Source of the DNA: Pyrolobus fumarii 1A
Lineage (GTDB): Archaea > Thermoproteota > Thermoprotei_A > Sulfolobales > Pyrodictiaceae
Length of the DNA stretch: 32,000 bases
NCBI RefSeq assembly: GCF_000223395.1
Contig: NC_015931.1
Location: 210,001 to 242,000, forward strand
Direction of reading: 5' to 3'
The notes under the pieces: model-generated
What the model was told of the DNA's origin: nothing
What the model saw: the letters and a program-made list of their open reading frames with translations, nothing else
Databases searched by the model: none
In this document: positions 2,222 to 28,357 of the stretch, in pieces
Position numbering within the stretch: the first letter of the stretch is position 1
Layout: the number at the start of each line of letters is the position of its first letter
Program-made: the position numbers and the translations under genes

Positions 2222-2297
2222 AGCCGGGTCGTCTAGCGGCCAAGGATGCGGGGCTTTGGCCCCCGTGACCGGGGTTCGAATCCCCGCCCGGCTACCA
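2222..2297 (+). tRNA. tRNA-Gln-TTG: tRNA-Gln, anticodon UUG, with encoded CCA (mature body 2222-2294)
   Basis: Hand-folded cloverleaf. Acceptor AGCCGGG/CCCGGCU, anticodon stem CGGGG/CCCCG with loop CUUUGGC, T arm CGGGG-UUCGAAU-CCCCG, discriminator A, then CCA. Confidence 0.9.
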
Positions 2298-3001: not shown

Positions 3002-3380
3002 TTGGCGCGCTACTATGCCGATAGCTGTGTCCTGTCGAGGATTCTTAGGGGTAGCCCCGCCTACGAGAGGTATGCCCAGCGAGGAGCTTGTCACTAGCGA
3101 ATTCAACTTATTGGAGCTTGCATACGCGTTGACCAGAGACTATGGTAGAGAGAAAGCGGTTAAGATACTGAGGATAGTACGGGCCTTTGTAACCGTTGTT
3201 CAAGCCACAGATGAAGATTATGTTGAAGCCTCTGCACTACGCATAGAGTTAAAGAAACGGGGCAAGAACCTCTCCCTGATAGACGCCCTAGGCTATGTGC
3301 TTGCAAGACGCCTTAGGATACCATTCCTAACGGGTGATCGTGAATTCAAAGATCTGGATGGAGTAGAATATGTTAAATGA
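3002..3380 (+). pseudogene. vapC: PIN-domain (VapC-like) toxin gene interrupted by a frameshift near 3072-3090
   Basis: The ORF-track ORF 3015-3380 has a PIN C-terminal half (EELVTSEFNLLELAYAL...LSLIDALGYVLARRLRIPFLTGDREFKDL). The expected N-terminus (M)ARYYADSCVLSRILRGSPAYERYAQ, with the first PIN Asp, is in a different frame. It starts at TTG 3002 and stops at TAG 3095-3097. Confidence 0.6.
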
Positions 3381-3663: not shown

Positions 3664-4530
3664 CTAGCCTTTAATTCTGTTCTCCTTGCTTTTAATCCAT
3701 GGTTTTCCTCGTTTGAGTATCGTTGGATCTTCCATTAGACCTTCTGGGTTTATCGCCCTTCGAGGCTCCTTACCGAGTACAAAGTACAATGATTCTTCCT
3801 CGGTGGGTATGATGTCTACGTCCTTGGTGAATAGCCATAGGGTTGACGCGATGTGCGCTATGCTCCTAAAGTTTAATGGTAGTATGGTTGCCTCGAAGTC
3901 TTTTAGTCTAACAAACGCCCGATAGTATGACCCCGTGATGAGATCGTACCTAACGTGGAATGATATACTGAGCTGCTCTAAGTCAGTGTTCTCAACTATT
4001 ATCTCTTTGAACCCTTTCCTGAATATCATGTCCACCCTGTCCATCTCCTCTATGATGATCACGCCATCGTCTTTTAGAGCATTGGCTGCTGATGCGAACA
4101 GCCTGGGCATATCCCATTCATTGAAGTGCGCCAGAATAGCACCATACATCAAGACTATATCGAATCTACCAAGCTTGTACGCGTCTAGAGCATCCATGAC
4201 ATACGCTTCGGCCTCTACGTTCTCCTCCCGGGCGAAGCGTCGTGCATCCTCTATGGCATCCTCGCGCAAGTCAACCATCACTAGCTTGACCTTTACGCTT
4301 CTCCTCATGAGCACCTTTGCTAATGCAACGCCACCAATGCCTCTACCAGCGCCAACATCCAGAATCGAGAGACTATCGTTATTGAGTAGCTCAGCCAGCC
4401 ATGGATGGCTGGCAAGGCGTTCAAACTCTCTAATAGCTCTAAGGTACCTCTCCTTACCCTTGTAAGACCAAGGATTATCTCCCCAGTCGACTATCCTATA
4501 CGCCTTTTCAAGTACATCCTTGTTGTCCAA
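3664..4530 (-). CDS. Class I SAM-dependent methyltransferase
   Basis: 288-aa ORF with motif I ILDVGAGRGIGG followed by an acidic post-I residue (VMVDL). GC content is visibly lower than in the neighbouring genes. Confidence 0.7.
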   Translation of the reverse strand: MDNKDVLEKAYRIVDWGDNPWSYKGKERYLRAIREFERLASHPWLAELLNNDSLSILDVGAGRGIGGVALAKVLMRRSVKVKLVMVDLREDAIEDARRFAREENVEAEAYVMDALDAYKLGRFDIVLMYGAILAHFNEWDMPRLFASAANALKDDGVIIIEEMDRVDMIFRKGFKEIIVENTDLEQLSISFHVRYDLITGSYYRAFVRLKDFEATILPLNFRSIAHIASTLWLFTKDVDIIPTEEESLYFVLGKEPRRAINPEGLMEDPTILKRGKPWIKSKENRIKG

Positions 4531-4583: not shown

Positions 4584-5324
4584 CTAAGCTATCTTCTCAC
4601 AAGCCTCTATGCACTCGTTGCTGACCTCTAGTTTGATCTTTGTGAACTCCATGTTTGCTAGGTCTATTATGAGGAGGTGGCCTGCGAGTGTCTCGCCGTA
4701 CCCTGTTATTAGTTTGATTGCTTCTGTTGCTGCTAGCGTGCCTACTACGCCGGGTGTGACGCCGACGACCGGTATGGGTCGTTGTGGGTCGCGTGGGTTG
4801 CGTACGATGCAGCGCAGGCAGGGGGTTTTGCCTGGTATGATTGTGGTTAGCTGGCCGTACATCCCGTGGATGCCTGCGTGCACGAAGGGTTTGCGGTGTT
4901 TCCAGCAGAGCTCGTCTAGCACTAGCCTCGCGGACCAGTTGTCCAGGCCGTCTATCACGACGTCTGCTCTCTTGACGAGGGGCTCTATGGTCTCCCTGGA
5001 TACTGTTGCCACGTGGGCTTCTATCCTAACGTCGGGGTTGAGCTTTGATAGTCTCTCGGCGGCTACTAGCGCCTTTGGCTTGCCGATATCCTCCTCGGTG
5101 TAGAGCACCTGGCGGTTGAGGTTTGATGGCTCAACAGCGTCCCTATCTACCAGTATCAGGTGGCCGACTCCGGCGAGTGTCAGGTAGAGCGAGGCTATCG
5201 AGCCTAGCCCGCCGACGCCGACTACGAGCACCGTCGCCTGGCGGAGTTTCTCTTGTGCCTCGCGGCCCCAGAGGCGTAGCTGCCTATCGTACCTCTCCAT
5301 GTTCCCGGCGTACCCGTACGCCAT
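4584..5324 (-). CDS. moeB: ThiF/MoeB/UbaA-type E1-like adenylyltransferase
   Basis: 246-aa ORF. Contains RYDRQLRLWG, the Rossmann motif VLVVGVGGLGS, NLNRQ, and two Cys pairs (CLRC, ECIEAC). Its start overlaps the 3' end of the upstream MoaD-MoaE gene. An alternative ATG lies at 5300. Confidence 0.85.
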   Translation of the reverse strand: MAYGYAGNMERYDRQLRLWGREAQEKLRQATVLVVGVGGLGSIASLYLTLAGVGHLILVDRDAVEPSNLNRQVLYTEEDIGKPKALVAAERLSKLNPDVRIEAHVATVSRETIEPLVKRADVVIDGLDNWSARLVLDELCWKHRKPFVHAGIHGMYGQLTTIIPGKTPCLRCIVRNPRDPQRPIPVVGVTPGVVGTLAATEAIKLITGYGETLAGHLLIIDLANMEFTKIKLEVSNECIEACEKIA

Positions 5325-6087
5325 CGCCCATCACCCAGTAGTCTCCATCCGCGCGCCTCTCTAGCTTGAATATGGGGGCCTGGTGCTTCACCTCCTCTAG
5401 GATGCTGCGGGCGGTTTCGAAGGCGGTTTTGCGGTCGCGGGCGGCCACGAGGATGTATATCGTCGTGTCTCCGGGTTTCAGCCTACCAACCCTATGGTAC
5501 ACGATGACGTCGGTGACGCCTTCCCTCTTGGAGTGCTTCTCTGCAATCTCGCGTAGCGTCCTGGACGCTAGAGGCTCGTAAGCCTCGTACACAAGCTCGT
5601 GCACCTCATTGCCATCCACAACACCCTTGACGAACCCTACGAAGACCACTAGCGCTCCACTACCCTTCTTGGACGCTTCCCTCGCAAGCCTAGAGACAAC
5701 CTCGTTCAAGTCGAGCTCCTGCTCTATGAGGCCGGCCTCTACAACCCCGCCGGCCGCAGGCGGCAAGAGCACAACCTCATCCCCGTCGCTCACCACATGG
5801 TCCATGCTAGCGGGGCTCCCATTCACCACCACGAGGGGCTTCAACCCGTGCTCCTCTAGCACTTGGAGTGCTCTTGCCAAGCCAGGCAACCGCCTCCTAG
5901 CCTCCTCGACAACCATACCCACGCTGACGCTGTCCCTCTCAACCTCTAGTGTCAGCTCATCGACGCCCGCCATGTCCCTAAACATGGCTACGAGACGGAG
6001 CCGGACTCTCACACGACCCCCAGCTATAGGCGTGAACGTGCCCCCTAAACCTCCCCCGGAGCACTCTACACAGCCAAGTGGTAACAC
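5284..6087 (-). CDS. moaE: MoaD-like (beta-grasp, ubiquitin-like) domain fused to the MoaE molybdopterin synthase catalytic domain
   Basis: The N-terminal ~90 aa (RVRVRLRLVAMFRDMAG...VVSDGDEVVLLPPAAGG) end in a di-glycine encoded at 5746-5751. A MoaE-like domain follows (ALVVFVGFVKG...EAYEPLA...VIVYHRVGRLKPGDTTIYILVAARDRKTAFE...IFKLE). The real start may be the GTG at 6012 rather than the ATG at 6087. Confidence 0.8.
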   Translation of the reverse strand: MLPLGCVECSGGGLGGTFTPIAGGRVRVRLRLVAMFRDMAGVDELTLEVERDSVSVGMVVEEARRRLPGLARALQVLEEHGLKPLVVVNGSPASMDHVVSDGDEVVLLPPAAGGVVEAGLIEQELDLNEVVSRLAREASKKGSGALVVFVGFVKGVVDGNEVHELVYEAYEPLASRTLREIAEKHSKREGVTDVIVYHRVGRLKPGDTTIYILVAARDRKTAFETARSILEEVKHQAPIFKLERRADGDYWVMGDGVRVRREHGEVR

Positions 6088-6560
6088 GGGTTAGAGTGGC
6101 ACACCTCCCCATCGATGCAAGGCCCGCAGTCGCGCCCCTCAACTACAACCTCTACCTCGCGAATCGGCCCTCCACGCTCTAACATCCACGCGCGTAGCTC
6201 TCCCATACACGAGGCTATCACCCACACAACCCTCCAGACAGCCATGCCGCTAGCGTCGCGAGCACTCGGCACAGCATGGCCGGATGGATGCGTATGTATA
6301 ACGGCGATAACCTCCAGCCCCTTTTCGTCTGCCAGCTCGGAGACCTTCAGCGTAGTCACGGGGTCTACCAGGAACTCTATCCGCGGATGCTCGGCCACGT
6401 TACACCCAAGCTGATAACACATAGATACGCCGCTATCACCATCGATATAGCCGAGGATAAAGCCCCCGACCTCCACTCCACACGTGCATGCCAGAGCTTG
6501 CAGCCTTCTCGCGGCATCCCTGCAGAGGAGTATACGGTTTACACGATCAAGCTTCTGCAA
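6066..6560 (-). CDS. JAMM/MPN+ metalloprotease
   Basis: 164-aa ORF with a TTG start. It carries the JAMM motif HTHPSGHAVPSARD (H-x-H-x7-S-x2-D) with an upstream Glu (AEHPRIEF). Confidence 0.8.
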   Translation of the reverse strand: MQKLDRVNRILLCRDAARRLQALACTCGVEVGGFILGYIDGDSGVSMCYQLGCNVAEHPRIEFLVDPVTTLKVSELADEKGLEVIAVIHTHPSGHAVPSARDASGMAVWRVVWVIASCMGELRAWMLERGGPIREVEVVVEGRDCGPCIDGEVCHSNPCYHLAV

Positions 6561-6622
6561 GACTCTCGGTATCCCGCCAGGTAGGCCTCCAAGCCGCCTT
6601 ATACCGTTCGTTTGGCATCCAC

Positions 6623-6644
6623 CCGTGGAGGGCAGCCTCCACGG
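6623..6644. other. Perfect 9-bp GC-rich inverted repeat / stem-loop in the divergent intergenic region
   Basis: CCGTGGAGG-GCAG-CCTCCACGG. It lies 63-84 nt upstream of the JAMM start. No convergent gene is present that it could terminate. Confidence 0.3.
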
Positions 6645-6839
6645 CGACGCACCCGATCAGGTTGAGGATTCCTTGGACGAGTAGATAGTGGTGATTAGTG
6701 TGTCATTATGACAAGTTGTAGATGTTTGAGCTGTGAGTCTTCACGTCTCTGTATATATGTGGTGTGGGATGGGAGGTTGTCTTGCCCGAGGGTAGTTTAA
6801 CCCTATTCTAGGCGCGAGTTGTAGTAACGGTGGTACCTT

Positions 6840-7238
6840 CTGCACGAGCTTGCAATCGTTAACGCGATACTAGCTGAGATCGAGAGGGTGGTGAAGCAAG
6901 GGTATAACGTAGAAGAGGTTGTGGTATACCTCGGCGAGTTGCAGAACGCCGACCGCGAGGTAATCGAGTCGTACCTCAAGAGGCTTGCACCCGAAATAGC
7001 GCCTGGGGTACGCGTGCGCTCTGAGGTTGAGAAGGCTAGGTTTAGGTGCAGGGTTTGCGGCAGTGAATGGAGTCTCCAAGACCTAGACCTCGACGAGGAT
7101 ATACGCGAGGCGGTACACTTCGTACCCGAGGCTATCTACAGCTTCGCTAAGTGTCCTCGCTGCGGGAGCCGGGACTTCGAGATAGTCTCGGGCCGCGGTG
7201 TCAGACTCTCCCTAAAGGTCAGCCGTGGCGAGGGGTAG
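6840..7238 (+). CDS. hypA: Hydrogenase nickel-insertion metallochaperone HypA
   Basis: The ORF track begins at GTG 6888, but hand translation from 6840 gives (L)HELAIVNAILAEIERVVKQG.... This restores the canonical M-H-E N-terminus. Zinc motif CRVCGSEW...CPRCGS. In-frame TAA at 6825-6827. The apparent start codon is CTG, preceded by GGTGG 6 nt upstream. Confidence 0.8.
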   Translation: MHELAIVNAILAEIERVVKQGYNVEEVVVYLGELQNADREVIESYLKRLAPEIAPGVRVRSEVEKARFRCRVCGSEWSLQDLDLDEDIREAVHFVPEAIYSFAKCPRCGSRDFEIVSGRGVRLSLKVSRGEG

Positions 7239-8010
7239 CAGGGTGAGTAACGTGGAGACCCTGAGCATAGACCCTAGGCTTGCTGGAGCGAGACTCATGC
7301 TCTCCAAGGTTAAGAGGATAGTGCTTGTCATGGGCTCTAAGGGTGGGGTGGGGAAGACCCTAATTGCGACGCTGTTAGCCCTCCAGGCGGCAAGGCTCGG
7401 CCTGAGAGTAGGCCTACTGGACCTAGATGTGACGGGCCCATCGGCTCACGTCGTGCTAGGTGTAGACCCTAGGGGCGTCCAGCCGGAGGAAAGGGAGGGC
7501 GTAGTCCCCCCGGAGGTTGCCAGAGGTCTACGTTTCATGTCGATCGTGTTCTACACGTGGGGCAGGCCTACACCCCTACGTGGCGAGTCCGTCGACGAGG
7601 TAATCAAGGAGGTACTGGCGGTCACTAATTGGGGCGAGCTAGACCTCCTGGTGGTCGACACGCCGCCGGGCCTCCGCGACGAGACACTAGACGTACTCGA
7701 GTACCTACCCAACCCCCATGTCGTTGCCGTAACGACACCCTCGAAGCTAGCACAGGCTGGCGTCGAGCGTCTACTAGCGCTGCTAGCGGAGCAGAGGGTA
7801 CCGCGCTACCTAGTGGAGAACATGGCTAGGAACGGTGGCGTGGCGAAGCAGCTAGCCGAGCGTTACGGCGCCGAGTATCTAGGCGTAGTGGGGTACGATC
7901 CGAGCGTAGAGGACGCCATCGGCAGTATAGAGAAGCTGCTGGCGACGCGTGTGGCTAGGGACGTGGAGCGTGTCACGCGCTCGCTGCTAGGGAAGCTTGG
8001 CCTAGCATAG
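7225..8010 (+). CDS. Mrp/MinD (ParA-type) P-loop ATPase, candidate ATPase-type HypB
   Basis: 261-aa ORF with a deviant Walker A (GSKGGVGKT) and Walker B (LLVVDTPPG). It overlaps the hypA stop. Possible starts are GTG 7225, 7243 or 7252. Confidence 0.75.
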   Translation: MARGSRVSNVETLSIDPRLAGARLMLSKVKRIVLVMGSKGGVGKTLIATLLALQAARLGLRVGLLDLDVTGPSAHVVLGVDPRGVQPEEREGVVPPEVARGLRFMSIVFYTWGRPTPLRGESVDEVIKEVLAVTNWGELDLLVVDTPPGLRDETLDVLEYLPNPHVVAVTTPSKLAQAGVERLLALLAEQRVPRYLVENMARNGGVAKQLAERYGAEYLGVVGYDPSVEDAIGSIEKLLATRVARDVERVTRSLLGKLGLA

Positions 8011-8075
8011 CCTTGGCGGAGCTACTAGCGTATTTCCAGGATTCTATTCAGGGTACGCAGCTGGTCGAGTAGCGG

Positions 8076-9650
8076 ATGAGTGTGTCCAAGGGAAGGTTCC
8101 AGCATCGCGTGTTGATGCTCGGAATTGATGGTCTCTCTGTGGATGTTTACAAGGCTCTACGGGGTCACGGGTACCTACGCTCGCTCTCGCAGCTAGAGTC
8201 TCGCGGTGTAACAGGTTCTGTTCCAATGGTGCCTCCATTCACGCCGCCGATGTGGACGAGTATAGTTAGTGGCGTGAACCCGGGTAAGCATGGCATCTAC
8301 TACTTCTTTCTGACCGACGAAGTAGGGAGACCGATACGCGTGCACATGGCGACAGATGTGATGCGCCCCAGGATACACGATATAGTATCTTACCATGGTG
8401 GTGAGAGTCTAGTTGTAAACCTACCGTTCTCCTCGTGGCCCCTCATACCATTCCGTGGTGCGCTGATATCCGATTGGCTCTCTCCCAGGGATTACGCCAA
8501 GCCAGAGTGGCTCAACGAGCTGTACAAGAAGGTCCTTGGCGAAGTCTCGAGAGAGTACTCGAAGCGCAGCGAAATATGCGGTCTACTCGCTCACGATATG
8601 GCGCTGATAGAGACGGTGGCTCGTGCATCGCGAAGAGGCCTGTTGAAAGACAAGGCGTACGTGTTCATAATGATGCGGTTTGTGGATGCAATTGTGCATG
8701 GCCATCCCGACGAGATCTACAATCCGCGTGACGATTGCCTAAGACACGTGTTAGGGGCATTCGACGAGCTTATGGAGGAGGTTTTGATCCCAGAATTCAT
8801 GGACAATGGGCTCATCCTCATCGTGAGTGACCATGGTGTCGACAGAGCCTCTTATCGAGTATCGATACCGAGGATACTCTATGACTACGGGCTCGTCAAG
8901 ATCCGGCTCAAGAAGGTGTCTGAGAGCCTTGCTAGAGAAACAGGAGGCAAGGAGCCGCTGGTAGCGCGCCTTGTAAACATGCTAATGAGGAACCGGATCA
9001 CGGGCAAGATTGTGACGCGCATCGGAAGAAAGGTGATGACATGGTTCCCGCGGCTCCGCAGGGTTGCAGTGCACGTCGAGAGGCCCACCATCGACGAAGA
9101 GAATAGCCCCGTGGTGATGCCTCACGAGTGGAGTATGGGAATCTATGTGAACACTAGAGTAGTGGATGACGTGAAAAGCGTTGTTGAAAGGGTAAGGGAG
9201 GCTCTCGAGGAGTTTCAGCGCGAAACCGGGCATCACTTCGCCTATAGTATCGACTTGGGCCGCGGAGGCATATTCCACGGTCCCTATGTAAACCGTGCGC
9301 CACACATCGTAGTGTCGCCGAGGAGAGGGTACAGCCTGGCCTCCGCGAACATCTATGCGCCGCCAGTAGACCCGGTTGATGGCCGTATAGGGGACCACCA
9401 TCCGGCGAACATGCACCTAGTGGTAGCGCCCAGTGGAGACCCGATGCTAGAAGAGGCGGCACGTCACATCAAAGAGCCGTGGGACTATGCTGTTATTGCG
9501 CTTCTTGCACTTGGTTTGCCCTTGCCGCACGACACGGACTCTAGGCTCTGCGAGAGGCTCGGCATAAAATGCGAGTATACCAACTACAATACGAGGTACA
9601 TGATATCGCGTAGGCTAGCAATGAAAACCGGCAGTGGTGTCCCACACTAA
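8076..9650 (+). CDS. Alkaline-phosphatase-superfamily protein (type I phosphodiesterase/nucleotide pyrophosphatase-like)
   Basis: 524-aa ORF. Contains MLGIDGLS, PPFTPPMWTSIVSGVNPGKHGIYYF and LIVSDHGV, all typical of the AP/NPP superfamily. Confidence 0.65.
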   Translation: MSVSKGRFQHRVLMLGIDGLSVDVYKALRGHGYLRSLSQLESRGVTGSVPMVPPFTPPMWTSIVSGVNPGKHGIYYFFLTDEVGRPIRVHMATDVMRPRIHDIVSYHGGESLVVNLPFSSWPLIPFRGALISDWLSPRDYAKPEWLNELYKKVLGEVSREYSKRSEICGLLAHDMALIETVARASRRGLLKDKAYVFIMMRFVDAIVHGHPDEIYNPRDDCLRHVLGAFDELMEEVLIPEFMDNGLILIVSDHGVDRASYRVSIPRILYDYGLVKIRLKKVSESLARETGGKEPLVARLVNMLMRNRITGKIVTRIGRKVMTWFPRLRRVAVHVERPTIDEENSPVVMPHEWSMGIYVNTRVVDDVKSVVERVREALEEFQRETGHHFAYSIDLGRGGIFHGPYVNRAPHIVVSPRRGYSLASANIYAPPVDPVDGRIGDHHPANMHLVVAPSGDPMLEEAARHIKEPWDYAVIALLALGLPLPHDTDSRLCERLGIKCEYTNYNTRYMISRRLAMKTGSGVPH

Positions 9651-27352: not shown

Positions 27353-28357
27353 GTGCTAACCGTGTCTAAGGCTATATCGGAGCATGACAACTTGGCTATG
27401 GTAAAGCCTCTAGTCTCTGAGGAAGAGATATACCTGGATATAGAGGCGATGATCAAGCTTATGGCGATAACAGTACGTGGTCTAGAGCTTGCAGTTGGAC
27501 AGAGAAGCGCAATGGCGCTAGGAACAATCATGGGCTCGCAACTTTACAAAAGCATGTCGCCTAGTATAAAGGGTAAGAACTTGAAGGAGGCTCTCGAGGC
27601 CGTAAACACACGTAGTTTCCGTATAGATGTTTACAAGATGCGAGGAAAAGTGGTCCATGAAGACCCGCAAACGGGGCGCAAGGTGTTCTATTACGTTGGA
27701 CGGGAGTGTCCGATACGACAAATACTATACCACGAGGATATTCCCGCCGGAGGTACACTTTGTCGCATAATGTGTAGTTTCGTGGAACAGTTGTTAGCGG
27801 ATGTACTAGGTGGCAAGTATTCTGTGAAACTGTTGCGTTACGGGCCTAATGCGTGCTTCCTGCGTGTAGAGATAGTTAACGGTCCGCAGCCTCCAGACGA
27901 TGTCGCCGTATACTCGAAGAAACCTAGTCTAGAAGAGTATGTCATGTTGCTACGTGAGGACCTTAGGTCTATACTTGTGGCTTTCGATGCAACTGTAGAT
28001 AGAGTATTGGGCGGCAATCCGACTATGAGTTACATGGCAGGTAAGAGGTATGGACTCCTAGATGGCGACAACCTGCTAAGTACTATTGGCAGAACGATCA
28101 GCGTCGACGAAGCCATAACCGTGCTAAACGTGGCTTACAAAGGTTTGCTAGAGCTGAGCAAGGAGGGTGACGTAATTAGCCTAGAAAGGAGTGTGTTCCA
28201 CGATCTAGTCGAGAAGCTGCAGCTTGGACGTGCAGTCTTCATCTATCGTACTCTGCAAGGCTACCTAGCTGGGCTTTTAGAGAGGCTAACTGGTCACCGT
28301 GTTGACCTACGCGGTTTAGATGAGAAAGCTACGCAACTAAAGATTCTCATGAGGTGA
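27353..28357 (+). CDS. Tandem V4R-like domain protein, first gene of the hydrogenase operon
   Basis: 334-aa ORF. The first half contains GRECPIRQ...GGTLCRIMCSFVEQLLADVLGGKYSVKLLRYGPNACFLRVEIV, which is the same block architecture as the V4R protein at 15189. The second half is a Cys-less repeat ending IYRTLQGYLAGLLERLTGHRVDL. Its stop overlaps the small-subunit start (GTGA). An alternative ATG start lies at 27398. Confidence 0.45.
   Translation: MLTVSKAISEHDNLAMVKPLVSEEEIYLDIEAMIKLMAITVRGLELAVGQRSAMALGTIMGSQLYKSMSPSIKGKNLKEALEAVNTRSFRIDVYKMRGKVVHEDPQTGRKVFYYVGRECPIRQILYHEDIPAGGTLCRIMCSFVEQLLADVLGGKYSVKLLRYGPNACFLRVEIVNGPQPPDDVAVYSKKPSLEEYVMLLREDLRSILVAFDATVDRVLGGNPTMSYMAGKRYGLLDGDNLLSTIGRTISVDEAITVLNVAYKGLLELSKEGDVISLERSVFHDLVEKLQLGRAVFIYRTLQGYLAGLLERLTGHRVDLRGLDEKATQLKILMR

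What the first reader, a model, noticed from the sequence alone, without database searches (positions are those of the whole stretch)
4584..6560. JAMM protease - MoaD~MoaE fusion - E1-like enzyme cassette (ubiquitin-like / sulfur-carrier system)
Three minus-strand genes overlap end to end (6066-6087 and 5284-5324).
- The middle gene fuses a MoaD-type beta-grasp domain to MoaE. The MoaD domain ends in LLPPAAGG, with the GG codons at 5746-5751.
- A beta-grasp sulfur carrier or SAMP must expose its C-terminal Gly-Gly to be adenylated by the E1. In this fusion the Gly-Gly is internal.
- The adjacent JAMM/MPN+ metalloprotease (HTHPSGHAVPSARD) is therefore the obvious candidate to release it. This would be analogous to Mec+/CysO processing in bacteria and to SAMP cleavage by HvJAMM1.

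Comparative genomics has predicted cassettes of this kind, but self-processing MoaD-MoaE precursors remain poorly characterised in archaea.
Basis: partly seen in the sequence, partly recalled or inferred. Interest (0 to 1): 0.6.

Follow-up and report, generated by a model that had tools for sequence, protein, structure and literature searches.

The report
Protease-activated molybdopterin synthase operon, Pyrolobus
This is an ordinary but unusually compact molybdenum-cofactor operon of the archaeon Pyrolobus fumarii, in which the two subunits of molybdopterin synthase are made as one chain next to the protease expected to cut them apart and the enzyme that activates the small subunit; the idea is already published and proven in other microbes.

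Summary
The three minus-strand genes are real. They are a JAMM/MPN+ metalloprotease (6066-6560, Pyrfu_0246), a MoaD~MoaE fusion, and a MoeB/ThiF-type E1 (4584-5324). The window comes from Pyrolobus fumarii 1A.

One correction is needed. The fusion starts at GTG 6012 and is 242 aa, so the stated 6066-6087 overlap with the JAMM gene is a longest-ORF artefact. The Gly-Gly is G88-G89, and its codons are at 5746-5751 as stated.

The fusion is not a sequencing artefact. In 38 aligned homologues the junction PPxxGG is invariant.

The proposed mechanism is well supported by homology and structure models, but it is not new:
- JAMM cleavage of a natural MoaD-MoaE fusion was shown in Deinococcus radiodurans.
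- Cleavage of an engineered SAMP1-MoaE was shown in Haloferax volcanii.
- MoaX cleavage was shown in mycobacteria.
- Cao et al. 2015 (S1 Table) already list this exact P. fumarii pair, G0EF74/G0EF75.

What I add:
- The tight JAMM-fusion-E1 clustering is rare. None of 65 other truly fused loci has a JAMM within 10 kb, and only one related MAG lineage shares the arrangement.
- The E1 lacks the crossover-loop cysteine and a rhodanese domain, which favours a sulfur-carrier role over ubiquitin-like conjugation.
- The JAMM carries a clade-specific Cys-rich tail.

Cleavage in this organism remains untested. Interest is low.

The parts
6066..6560 (-). JAMM/MPN+ metalloprotease gene (Pyrfu_0246, 164 aa, TTG start). 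It is the predicted maturase of the fusion.
   Evidence: Prok-JAB 52.2 bits against a cutoff of 25. The database protein is identical, 164 aa. PfJAMM1 5LD9/5LDA matches by sequence at E = 3e-17. The AF2 model has pLDDT 93.9 and matches PfJAMM1 at TM 0.92, rmsd 1.5 A.
6255..6296 (-). JAMM zinc-site motif HTHPSGHAVPSARD (H89, H91, S99, D102). The catalytic Glu30 is at 6471-6473.
   Evidence: E30, H89, H91, S99 and D102 are invariant in 12- and 60-sequence alignments. Coordinates.
6069..6137 (-). Cys/His-rich C-terminal tail of the JAMM (GRDCGPCIDGEVCHSNPCYHLAV). It is absent from PfJAMM1.
   Evidence: A C-x(6-11)-C-x2-C tail is shared by the closest crenarchaeal homologues P0081-84 and P0087. 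PfJAMM1 ends at the preceding VVE. Model confidence is low for residues 151-164.
6013..6065 (-). 53-nt JAMM-fusion spacer with Shine-Dalgarno-like GGGGGAGG and GGGGGT motifs. No gene overlap occurs here.
   Evidence: Sequence read. The GTG 6012 start is supported.
5746..6012 (-). MoaD-type beta-grasp domain of the fusion (residues 1-89), ending LLPPAAGG.
   Evidence: ThiS PF02597 28.9 bits against a cutoff of 22.5. moaD_arch and SAMP1 models align through to the GG. The model matches MoaD 1FM0_D at TM 0.80 and SAMP1 3PO0 at 0.82.
5746..5751 (-). Gly88-Gly89 codons (GGC GGG). The predicted JAMM cleavage site is after G89 (G89|V90).
   Evidence: P84, P85, G88 and G89 are invariant in 38 fusions. 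The site aligns with the MoaX PQVAGG|S junction. The junction block has pLDDT 75 against 92 overall.
5284..5745 (-). MoaE catalytic domain of the fusion (residues 90-242 plus the stop codon).
   Evidence: MoaE PF02391 105 bits. K209 and K216 align with E. coli MoaE K119 and K126 and are invariant. Fold TM is 0.88 to 6JC0_D.
4584..5324 (-). MoeB/ThiF-type E1 adenylyltransferase (246 aa). It overlaps the end of the fusion gene by 41 nt.
   Evidence: ThiF PF00899 262.8 bits. It aligns end to end with E. coli ThiF and MoeB. GVGGLG is at 5202-5219, CLRC at 4809-4820 and CIEAC at 4599-4613.
4749..4808 (-). E1 crossover loop (IVRNPRDPQRPIPVVGVTPG) with no cysteine.
   Evidence: ThiF Cys184 aligns to Ile, with a 3-residue deletion. 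All six fusion-linked E1s lack a Cys here. The only Cys residues are at 140, 169, 172, 238 and 242.
6561..6839 (.). Divergent intergenic region between the JAMM gene and hypA. It has a TATA-like GGTATAAGG about 40 nt upstream of the JAMM TTG and is the putative operon promoter.
   Evidence: Read from the sequence. This is inference only, with no transcript data.

Best explanation
The locus is a three-gene operon for making active molybdopterin (MPT) synthase.

**Proposed sequence of events**
1. The middle gene yields an inactive pro-enzyme. In it the MoaD sulfur carrier (residues 1-89) is joined through its Gly88-Gly89 directly to MoaE (residues 90-242).
2. The upstream zinc JAMM/MPN+ protease cuts the G89|V90 peptide bond. 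This releases MoaD with a free C-terminal Gly-Gly (expected 9,586 Da) and MoaE (expected 17,224 Da) in 1:1 stoichiometry.
3. The downstream MoeB/ThiF-type E1 adenylates the MoaD C-terminus.
4. An unlinked sulfur donor converts the acyl-adenylate to a thiocarboxylate. No rhodanese domain or desulfurase is in the cassette.
5. MoaD-COSH and MoaE reassemble as the MPT synthase heterotetramer, which converts cPMP to molybdopterin for the organism's Mo/W enzymes.

**What is shown here**
- Gene structure, domain identities and folds.
- Intact catalytic residues in all three proteins.
- Conservation of the junction.
- Conservation of the fusion-E1 pair.

**What is inferred**
- Cleavage by this JAMM at this bond.
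- Co-transcription of the three genes.
- The sulfur source.
For: **Domains and folds**
- The fusion model has pLDDT 92. Its domains match MoaD/SAMP1 (TM 0.80-0.84) and MoaE (TM 0.88).
- The JAMM model has pLDDT 93.9 and TM 0.92 to PfJAMM1, including the SAMP2 complex 5LDA.

**Catalytic residues**
- The JAMM E/H/H/S/D set is invariant.
- MoaE K209 and K216 correspond to E. coli K119 and K126.
- The E1 has the GVGGLG motif and aligns end to end with ThiF/MoeB.

**Junction and artefact check**
- PPxxGG is invariant in 38 single-chain homologues.
- 65 independent genomes carry single-ORF fusions, so the fusion is not an artefact.

**Gene neighbourhood**
- The fusion-E1 overlap is conserved in five related lineages.
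- JAMM-fusion-E1 in the same order, next to LeuRS, is seen in a second lineage, L085/L088/L089.

**Published precedent**
- DR0402 cleaves DR2607 and is required for cPMP consumption (PMC8832034).
- HvJAMM1 cleaves SAMP1-MoaE after the terminal Gly and is required for its activity in vivo (PMC4443979).
- MoaX is cut at Gly82|Ser83, and this cut is required for function (PMC4326299).
- 24 of 27 crenarchaea with a fusion encode a JAMM, P. fumarii included.
Against: - No biochemical data exist for this organism or for any natural crenarchaeal fusion in the searched literature.
- JAMM adjacency is the exception. 0 of 65 other fused loci, and three of the five closest lineages, have no JAMM within 6-10 kb.
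- The closest JAMM homologues (40% identity) sit in an unrelated context. The adjacency alone is therefore weak statistical evidence.
- Ignicoccus hospitalis has a fusion but no listed JAMM, so another protease can presumably do the job somewhere.
- I could not scan the whole P. fumarii genome for other Ubl substrates, a stand-alone MoaD, or a second E1.
- Co-transcription is inferred only from spacing and overlap.
Confidence: 0.8

Rival explanations
1. The JAMM is a general Ubl-deconjugating enzyme (desampylase/deurmylase type). It removes Urm1/SAMP-like modifiers from many proteins, perhaps including isopeptide-modified MoaE. Its position next to the fusion would then be incidental or reflect regulation, with fusion maturation being only one of its jobs or not its job at all.
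For: - The best family and structure matches are desampylases acting on SAMP conjugates.
- The closest homologues are stand-alone genes far from any Ubl or E1 gene.
- Jab genes are rarely linked to Ubl genes in archaea (PMC2948915).
- The MoaE-MoaD fusion protein is itself urmylated in Saccharolobus (PMC12625751).
- HvJAMM1 handles both linear and isopeptide links.
Against: - The same JAMM-fusion-E1 order is retained in a second lineage, even though that JAMM has diverged to about 30% identity.
- The fusion chemically requires a protease, and the genome-level co-occurrence is 24 of 27.
- The two roles are not mutually exclusive.
Confidence: 0.12
2. The fusion is matured by a different protease or by autoproteolysis, and the JAMM has an unrelated substrate.
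For: - The protease that cleaves MoaX in mycobacteria was unidentified in PMC4326299.
- Ignicoccus has a fusion with no listed JAMM.
- Most fused loci have no JAMM nearby.
Against: - Where tested, in Deinococcus and Haloferax, the JAMM is necessary and sufficient.
- Neither MoaD nor MoaE has a protease-like or intein-like element.
- The fusion has no Cys at all, which excludes Cys-based self-cleavage chemistry.
Confidence: 0.05
3. The cassette is a ubiquitin-like protein-conjugation or anti-virus system (Ubl + E1 + JAB, as in Bil or CBASS Cap2/Cap3) and not cofactor biosynthesis.
For: - It superficially has the same three component types.
- There are weak PADLOC and NCBIfam hits: BilC 18.6 bits, E1-E2 at most 73 bits, cap2_3 59 bits against a cutoff of 320.
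Against: - No E2 domain or gene is present.
- The Ubl is fused to a catalytically intact MoaE.
- The E1 scores 263 bits to ThiF and lacks the thioester Cys.
- The fusion matches no defence model.
- GC content is uniform, and the flanks are housekeeping genes such as LeuRS, SIS and Rpb7, shared with relatives.
Confidence: 0.02

Closest known systems
Deinococcus radiodurans DR2607 (MoaD-MoaE fusion) with DR0402 (DRJAMM); Yang et al. 2018, Cai et al. 2022 (PMC8832034)
   Same: A natural single-chain MoaD-MoaE with an internal Gly-Gly. A stand-alone JAMM/MPN+ protease releases MoaD with a C-terminal Gly and is required for MPT synthase activity.
   Different: It is bacterial and the two genes are far apart on the chromosome. 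Here the JAMM, the fusion and the E1 are contiguous, and the proteins come from a hyperthermophilic crenarchaeon. The DR fusion is only distantly related; bacterial fusions are about 30-35% identical.
Mycobacterium tuberculosis MoaX (Rv3323c); Narrandes et al. 2015 (PMC4326299); PDB 9JBD
   Same: It is the best PDB sequence match (E = 8e-21), aligning from the junction PQVAGG|S onto PPAAGG|V. Cleavage after the second Gly is required for function.
   Different: The protease was not identified in that study. MoaX coexists with several separate MoaD/MoaE paralogues. No adjacent JAMM or E1 is reported.
Haloferax volcanii SAMP1 / MoaE / HvJAMM1 / UbaA; Hepowit 2012, Cao 2015 (PMC4443979)
   Same: An archaeal system with a JAMM that cuts a linear SAMP1-MoaE precisely after the terminal Gly and thereby activates MPT synthase. 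The E1 adenylates the same Ubl. The authors tabulated the P. fumarii pair G0EF74/G0EF75.
   Different: In Haloferax the genes are separate and the linear fusion was engineered. SAMP1 is also a protein modifier. From my own knowledge, UbaA has a conserved active-site Cys in the crossover loop; the P. fumarii E1 has none.
Pyrococcus furiosus JAMM1 (PDB 5LD9, and 5LDA with SAMP2); Cao et al. 2017
   Same: It is the closest solved structure to the JAMM: E = 3e-17 by sequence, TM 0.92 and rmsd 1.5 A by fold. It has the same minimal MPN+ core.
   Different: PfJAMM1 lacks the 23-residue Cys/His-rich C-terminal tail and the N-terminal conserved cysteines of the Pyrolobus clade. Its known substrate is SAMP2, not a MoaD-MoaE fusion.
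Mec+/CysO (M. tuberculosis cysteine biosynthesis) and the Caldiarchaeum CsRpn11/Ub precursor (PMC6043591)
   Same: A JAMM protease acts at the C-terminal Gly-Gly of a beta-grasp carrier or modifier encoded in the same gene cluster as an E1-like enzyme.
   Different: Mec+ hydrolyses a CysO-cysteine adduct in a different pathway. CsRpn11 trims a short C-terminal propeptide in a full E1/E2/E3 operon. Neither separates two subunits of one enzyme.

Membership tests
JAMM/MPN+ metalloprotease (Prok-JAB, PF14464) | Pfam model score above the gathering threshold | tested here: met
   52.2 bits against a cutoff of 25, E = 6.8e-14.
JAMM/MPN+ metalloprotease (Prok-JAB, PF14464) | Active-site motif E-x(n)-H-x-H-x7-S-x2-D | tested here: met
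   E30 and H89-T-H91-x7-S99-x2-D102 are present and invariant in 60 homologues.
JAMM/MPN+ metalloprotease (Prok-JAB, PF14464) | MPN fold | tested here: met
   The AF2 model has pLDDT 93.9. Foldseek gives TM 0.92 and rmsd 1.5 A to PfJAMM1 5LDA.
Desampylase equivalog (NCBIfam NF041370, haloarchaeal HvJAMM1 type) | Score above the curated equivalog cutoff | tested here: not met
   57.5 bits against a cutoff of 130. It is a homologue, not an orthologue, of the haloarchaeal enzyme.
JAMM-processed fused MPT synthase (DR2607/DR0402, MoaX type) | MoaD and MoaE in one uninterrupted reading frame | tested here: met
   There is a single ORF in the window. An identical 242-aa protein occurs in independent sources. 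65 other genomes carry single-ORF fusions.
JAMM-processed fused MPT synthase (DR2607/DR0402, MoaX type) | Conserved Gly-Gly at the domain junction | tested here: met
   G88 and G89, together with P84 and P85, are invariant in 38 sequences.
JAMM-processed fused MPT synthase (DR2607/DR0402, MoaX type) | A JAMM protease encoded in the same genome | tested here: met
   The JAMM gene is directly upstream at 6066-6560. The pair is listed in Cao 2015 S1 Table.
JAMM-processed fused MPT synthase (DR2607/DR0402, MoaX type) | Proteolytic cleavage after the second Gly, required for activity | not testable with these tools
   This needs recombinant protein and mass spectrometry. Expected products are 9,586 and 17,224 Da.
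MoaD/ThiS beta-grasp sulfur carrier | Family model match and beta-grasp fold | tested here: met
   PF02597 scores 28.9 bits against a cutoff of 22.5. Fold TM is 0.80-0.84 to MoaD and SAMP1 chains. TIGR01687 moaD_arch scores 41.8, below its 49.5 cutoff.
MoaD/ThiS beta-grasp sulfur carrier | Free C-terminal Gly-Gly carboxylate | tested here: not met
   As encoded, the GG is internal and followed directly by V90 of MoaE. This is why processing is required.
MoaE (MPT synthase catalytic subunit) | Family model match, fold, and the catalytic lysine pair | tested here: met
   PF02391 scores 105 bits. Fold TM is 0.88. K209 and K216 align with E. coli K119 and K126 and are invariant. NCBIfam equivalogs are below their cutoffs, 75.6 against 175 and 96.8 against 215.
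MoeB/ThiF-type E1 adenylyltransferase | ThiF-family Rossmann domain with a GxGxxG nucleotide loop | tested here: met
   PF00899 scores 262.8 bits. GVGGLG is at residues 36-41. The protein aligns end to end with ThiF 1ZUD and MoeB 1JW9.
MoeB/ThiF-type E1 adenylyltransferase | Two CxxC pairs forming the structural zinc site | tested here: inconclusive
   The first pair, CLRC, is present. The second is C-x3-C (CIEAC) here and C-x2/3-C in relatives.
Ubiquitin-type E1 / UbaA (thioester-forming) | Catalytic Cys in the crossover loop | tested here: not met
   ThiF Cys184 aligns to Ile, with a 3-residue deletion. There is no Cys between residues 173 and 237, and the same holds in all six related E1s.
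Ubl conjugation / anti-phage Ubl systems (Bil, CBASS Cap2-Cap3) | E2 domain or gene, plus defence-family model matches | tested here: not met
   No E2 is present. PADLOC hits are generic only: JAMM at most 18.6 bits, E1 at most 73 bits, and the fusion matches nothing.

The most novel reading that the evidence does not exclude
The released MoaD domain could be more than a sulfur carrier. In this reading it would double as a SAMP1/Urm1-like protein modifier in a crenarchaeon whose E1 has no thioester cysteine. Conjugation would then proceed from the adenylate or thiocarboxylate without an E1~Ubl thioester. The operon-encoded JAMM would serve both as maturase and as deconjugase. Its Cys-rich tail could be a redox or metal sensor that gates molybdenum-cofactor synthesis.
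Probability: 0.12. Interest if true: 0.5.

Novelty: already known. Interest (0 to 1): 0.2.

Why it matters
MPT synthase is needed for every Mo/W enzyme, and P. fumarii respires nitrate (my own knowledge), so this operon is probably essential to its metabolism.

The concept of a fused pro-enzyme activated by a JAMM protease is established, so the locus adds no new principle. Its practical value is modest:
- It is the most compact natural arrangement of protease, substrate and E1 that I found.
- It comes from an organism that grows above 100 C (my own knowledge), which makes it a convenient source of stable proteins. These could be used for a structure of a JAMM bound to a natural linear Ubl-enzyme precursor.
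- It would allow the first test of a natural crenarchaeal fusion.

The rarity of the adjacency also warns against treating JAMM-Ubl-E1 clustering as the norm for these systems.

Tried and rejected
1. **Single-sequence phmmer scan for JAMM.** I scanned the 80 loci for JAMM with phmmer and an active-site motif and found nothing.
   - I distrusted the result and rebuilt a family HMM from 149 representatives.
   - The outcome for L001-L080 was the same, but the HMM confirmed a divergent JAMM upstream of the fusion in L085/L088/L089. Precomputed Pfam had left that gene unlabelled.
2. **Treating all 80 genome-contig loci as fusions.**
   - Gene calls on L094, the same contig as L010, showed a split pair.
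   - Reclassification gave 65 fused, 14 split and 1 partial, and I corrected the counts.
3. **Sequencing-artefact reading of the fusion.** Rejected, because an identical protein occurs in independent sources and the junction is conserved.
4. **Defence-system reading.** Rejected.
5. **Repeats, tRNA and Rfam scan around the cassette.** Nothing relevant was found.
6. **Literature on the UbaA active-site Cys.** The searches found nothing, so that point rests on my own knowledge.
7. **First search for related loci attempt.** It failed because alignment A1 was too divergent and was repeated with A2.
8. **Third homologue search.** I ran no further search on the MoaD domain or the E1.
Full report
**Source and gene structure**

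The window comes from Pyrolobus fumarii 1A. The fusion protein is 100% identical to the database entry 'molybdopterin biosynthesis MoaE protein [Pyrolobus fumarii 1A]' (P0001). The JAMM is identical to Pyrfu_0246 (P0079).

Three consecutive minus-strand ORFs occupy 4584-6560. Pfam assigns them as follows:
- Prok-JAB, E = 6.8e-14.
- ThiS/MoaD plus MoaE, E = 1.7e-6 and 3.2e-30.
- ThiF, E = 2.8e-78.

NCBIfam agrees. The matching models are desampylase, moaD_arch/SAMP1 plus MoaE, and MoeB/ThiF/UbaA-type. All score below their equivalog cutoffs, as expected for a divergent crenarchaeal set.

**Correction to the observation**

Several results show the real start is GTG 6012:
- The database protein is 242 aa.
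- Nearly all 38 full-length homologues begin MRV/MKV at that position.
- The MoaD models align from residue 28 of the long ORF.
- GGGGGT lies just upstream of 6012.

JAMM and the fusion are therefore separated by 53 nt and do not overlap. The Gly-Gly is G88-G89, not 113-114. Its codons are at 5746-5751 as stated.

The fusion/E1 overlap (5284-5324) is real. The E1 N-terminus MAYGY..ERYDRQ is conserved. The relatives' genes overlap by 32-62 nt.

**The fusion is genuine and catalytically competent**
- In 38 aligned single-chain homologues, P84, P85, G88 and G89 are invariant. So are MoaE residues H173, R194, K209 and K216.
- K209 and K216 align with E. coli MoaE K119 and K126.
- The AlphaFold model is confident (pLDDT 92) and dips to about 75 only at the junction.
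- Its C-domain matches MoaE structures (TM 0.88 to 6JC0_D, 0.81 to 1FM0_E). Its N-domain matches MoaD and SAMP1 (TM 0.80-0.84).
- The best PDB sequence hit is the MoaE part of M. tuberculosis MoaX. The alignment begins at the junction, PQVAGG|S against PPAAGG|V.
- MoaE begins immediately after the GG with no spacer, so a cut at G89|V90 would give two native-like subunits.

**The JAMM is an intact MPN+ protease of the SAMP-cleaving type**
- E30, H89, H91, S99 and D102 are invariant in 60 homologues.
- The nearest solved structure is P. furiosus JAMM1, at E = 3e-17 by sequence.
- By fold it matches at TM 0.92 and rmsd 1.5 A, including the SAMP2 complex.
- It is a divergent protein. An exhaustive search found 725 relatives, but the closest is only 40% identical.
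- Its clade carries extra conserved cysteines and a C-terminal C-x(6-11)-C-x2-C tail that PfJAMM1 lacks.

**The E1 looks like an adenylation-only MoeB**
- It aligns end to end with E. coli ThiF and MoeB.
- It has the GVGGLG loop, a CLRC pair and a C-terminal CIEAC pair.
- It has no rhodanese domain.
- It has no cysteine in the crossover loop. ThiF Cys184 aligns to Ile, next to a 3-residue deletion.
- The same is true of all six fusion-linked E1s I recovered.

From my own knowledge, this cysteine is dispensable in E. coli MoeB. It is the thioester or acyl-disulfide site in ThiF, UbaA and eukaryotic E1s. Its absence argues against ubiquitin-type conjugation. It does not exclude Urm1-style conjugation through a thiocarboxylate.

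**Comparative genomics**

A scan of one genome per species returned 80 loci. After I corrected an initial misclassification, these were 65 true single-ORF fusions, 14 split adjacent MoaD + MoaE pairs and 1 partial. The fused set comprises 7 archaeal and 58 bacterial loci. Of the split MoaDs, 11 of 14 end exactly in GG-stop.

A JAMM family HMM built from 149 representatives finds no JAMM within 10 kb in any of the 80 loci.

Among the closest relatives (55-65% identity):
- Three lineages have fusion -> overlapping E1 -> ThiI, with no JAMM.
- One lineage (L085/L088/L089) has a small divergent JAMM directly upstream of fusion -> E1. That JAMM is 33% identical, with pairwise E = 1e-9 and one residue fewer in the HxH...S spacer.
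- That lineage shares the LeuRS-SIS-Rpb7 flank with the window. The arrangement is therefore probably inherited, not assembled twice.

The nearest JAMM homologues (40% identity) are stand-alone genes between glycerate kinase and DeoC/Topo VI genes. The conserved core is thus fusion + E1, and JAMM adjacency is rare.

**What is already known**
- Cao et al. 2015 noted that archaeal Ubl-MoaE fusions are confined to Crenarchaeota and predicted them to be inactive until cut.
- They showed that HvJAMM1 cleaves an engineered SAMP1-MoaE after the terminal Gly, and that this cut is required for DMSO respiration.
- Their S1 Table pairs a fusion with a JAMM in 24 of 27 crenarchaea. The list includes P. 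fumarii G0EF74/G0EF75, the only pair with consecutive accessions.
- The main text does not mention the adjacency.
- Yang et al. 2018 and Cai et al. 2022 showed that DR0402 cleaves the natural DR2607 fusion and is needed for cPMP turnover.
- Narrandes et al. 2015 mapped MoaX cleavage to Gly82|Ser83 and showed it is essential.
- A 2024 survey counts the fusion in 18 of 35 Thermoproteales and 5 of 30 Desulfurococcales.
- Makarova and Koonin 2010 noted MoaD-MoaE fusions and observed that Jab genes are rarely linked to Ubl genes in archaea.
- No paper in the library mentions P. fumarii together with JAMM in its text.

**Mechanism and rivals**
- The best-supported model (about 0.8) has four steps. 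The JAMM cuts G89|V90. The E1 adenylates MoaD-GG. An unlinked donor supplies sulfur. MoaD-COSH and MoaE then form active MPT synthase.
- The JAMM could be a general deconjugase whose position is incidental or regulatory (about 0.12). This does not exclude the main model.
- Another protease or autoproteolysis could mature the fusion (about 0.05). The fusion has no Cys at all.
- A conjugation or defence system is the least likely (about 0.02). It is rejected on the missing E2, the missing E1 Cys and the absence of specific PADLOC matches.

**Verdict**

However, the system is an already-described kind, and this instance is already tabulated in the literature. The added value lies in three points: the rarity of the three-gene clustering, the Cys-less E1, and the Cys-rich JAMM tail. 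Interest is low (0.2).

Noticed in passing
window 6825-7238 (+): hypA probably starts upstream of the mechanical GTG 6888 start. The HypA models match only from profile position 24-25. In frame after a TAA stop (6825-6827), the codons CTG(6840)-CAC-GAG-CTT-GCA-ATC give (M/L)HELAIVNAILAEIER, the canonical HypA MHE nickel-binding N-terminus. This implies either a non-canonical CTG start or an ATG-to-CTG base error.
   Followed up: partly
window 7225-8010 (+): An Mrp/NUBPL-type P-loop ATPase (PF10609, E = 2.7e-44) overlaps the end of hypA. From my own knowledge of Thermococcales, it is probably the archaeal Mrp/MinD-type substitute for HypB in [NiFe]-hydrogenase nickel insertion. The hypA-mrp-phosphodiesterase block (6840-9650) sits between LeuRS and the JAMM gene here but is absent from the syntenic locus L085.
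   Followed up: partly
window 6069-6137 and JAMM residues 13, 25, 27, 53: The JAMM has 10 cysteines in 164 residues. They include a C-terminal CxxC...C...C tail and an N-terminal LACxC, conserved only in its closest crenarchaeal relatives (P0081-84, P0087) and absent from PfJAMM1. This could be a second metal site or disulfide stabilisation. The tail is modelled with low confidence.
   Followed up: partly
L085 5630-5983; L088 5580-5996; L089 933-1349: The JAMM-like genes upstream of the fusion in a related MAG lineage have a shortened motif, HTHPLGxRPSxLD (6 residues instead of 7 between HxH and S). They score only 18-27 bits against the family HMM and had no precomputed Pfam hit. They may be degenerating or a variant active site.
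   Followed up: partly
L004, L011, L015 (split MoaD genes): Three archaeal stand-alone MoaD ORFs continue 1-15 residues past the Gly-Gly (GGA*, GGCSFE*, GGSRFKPPAEYSYGCGD*), whereas 11 others stop right after GG. They could be propeptides that need trimming, or frameshift errors in low-coverage MAGs within genes that are really fused.
   Followed up: no
L081 7417-8580; L083 7405-8580; L086 4042-5214: In three related lineages a ThiI gene (ThiI_fer-THUMP-ThiI) overlaps the end of the E1 gene that follows the fusion. This suggests the same E1 is linked to tRNA/thiamine sulfur transfer there. In the window the gene after the E1 is instead a class I SAM methyltransferase (3664-4530).
   Followed up: no
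window 3664-4530 (-): A class I SAM-dependent methyltransferase of unknown target lies 53 nt downstream of the E1 on the same strand and may belong to the same transcript. PADLOC gives a mad2 (methylation-associated defence) hit of 54 bits, which probably reflects only the generic methyltransferase fold.
   Followed up: no
window 2222-2297, 2429-2506, 3015-3380: tRNA-Gln(TTG) and tRNA-Arg(CCG) genes are followed by a PIN-domain (VapC-like) ORF. Several large ORFs have no Pfam match, for example 783-2177 (464 aa) and 27353-28357 (334 aa).
   Followed up: no
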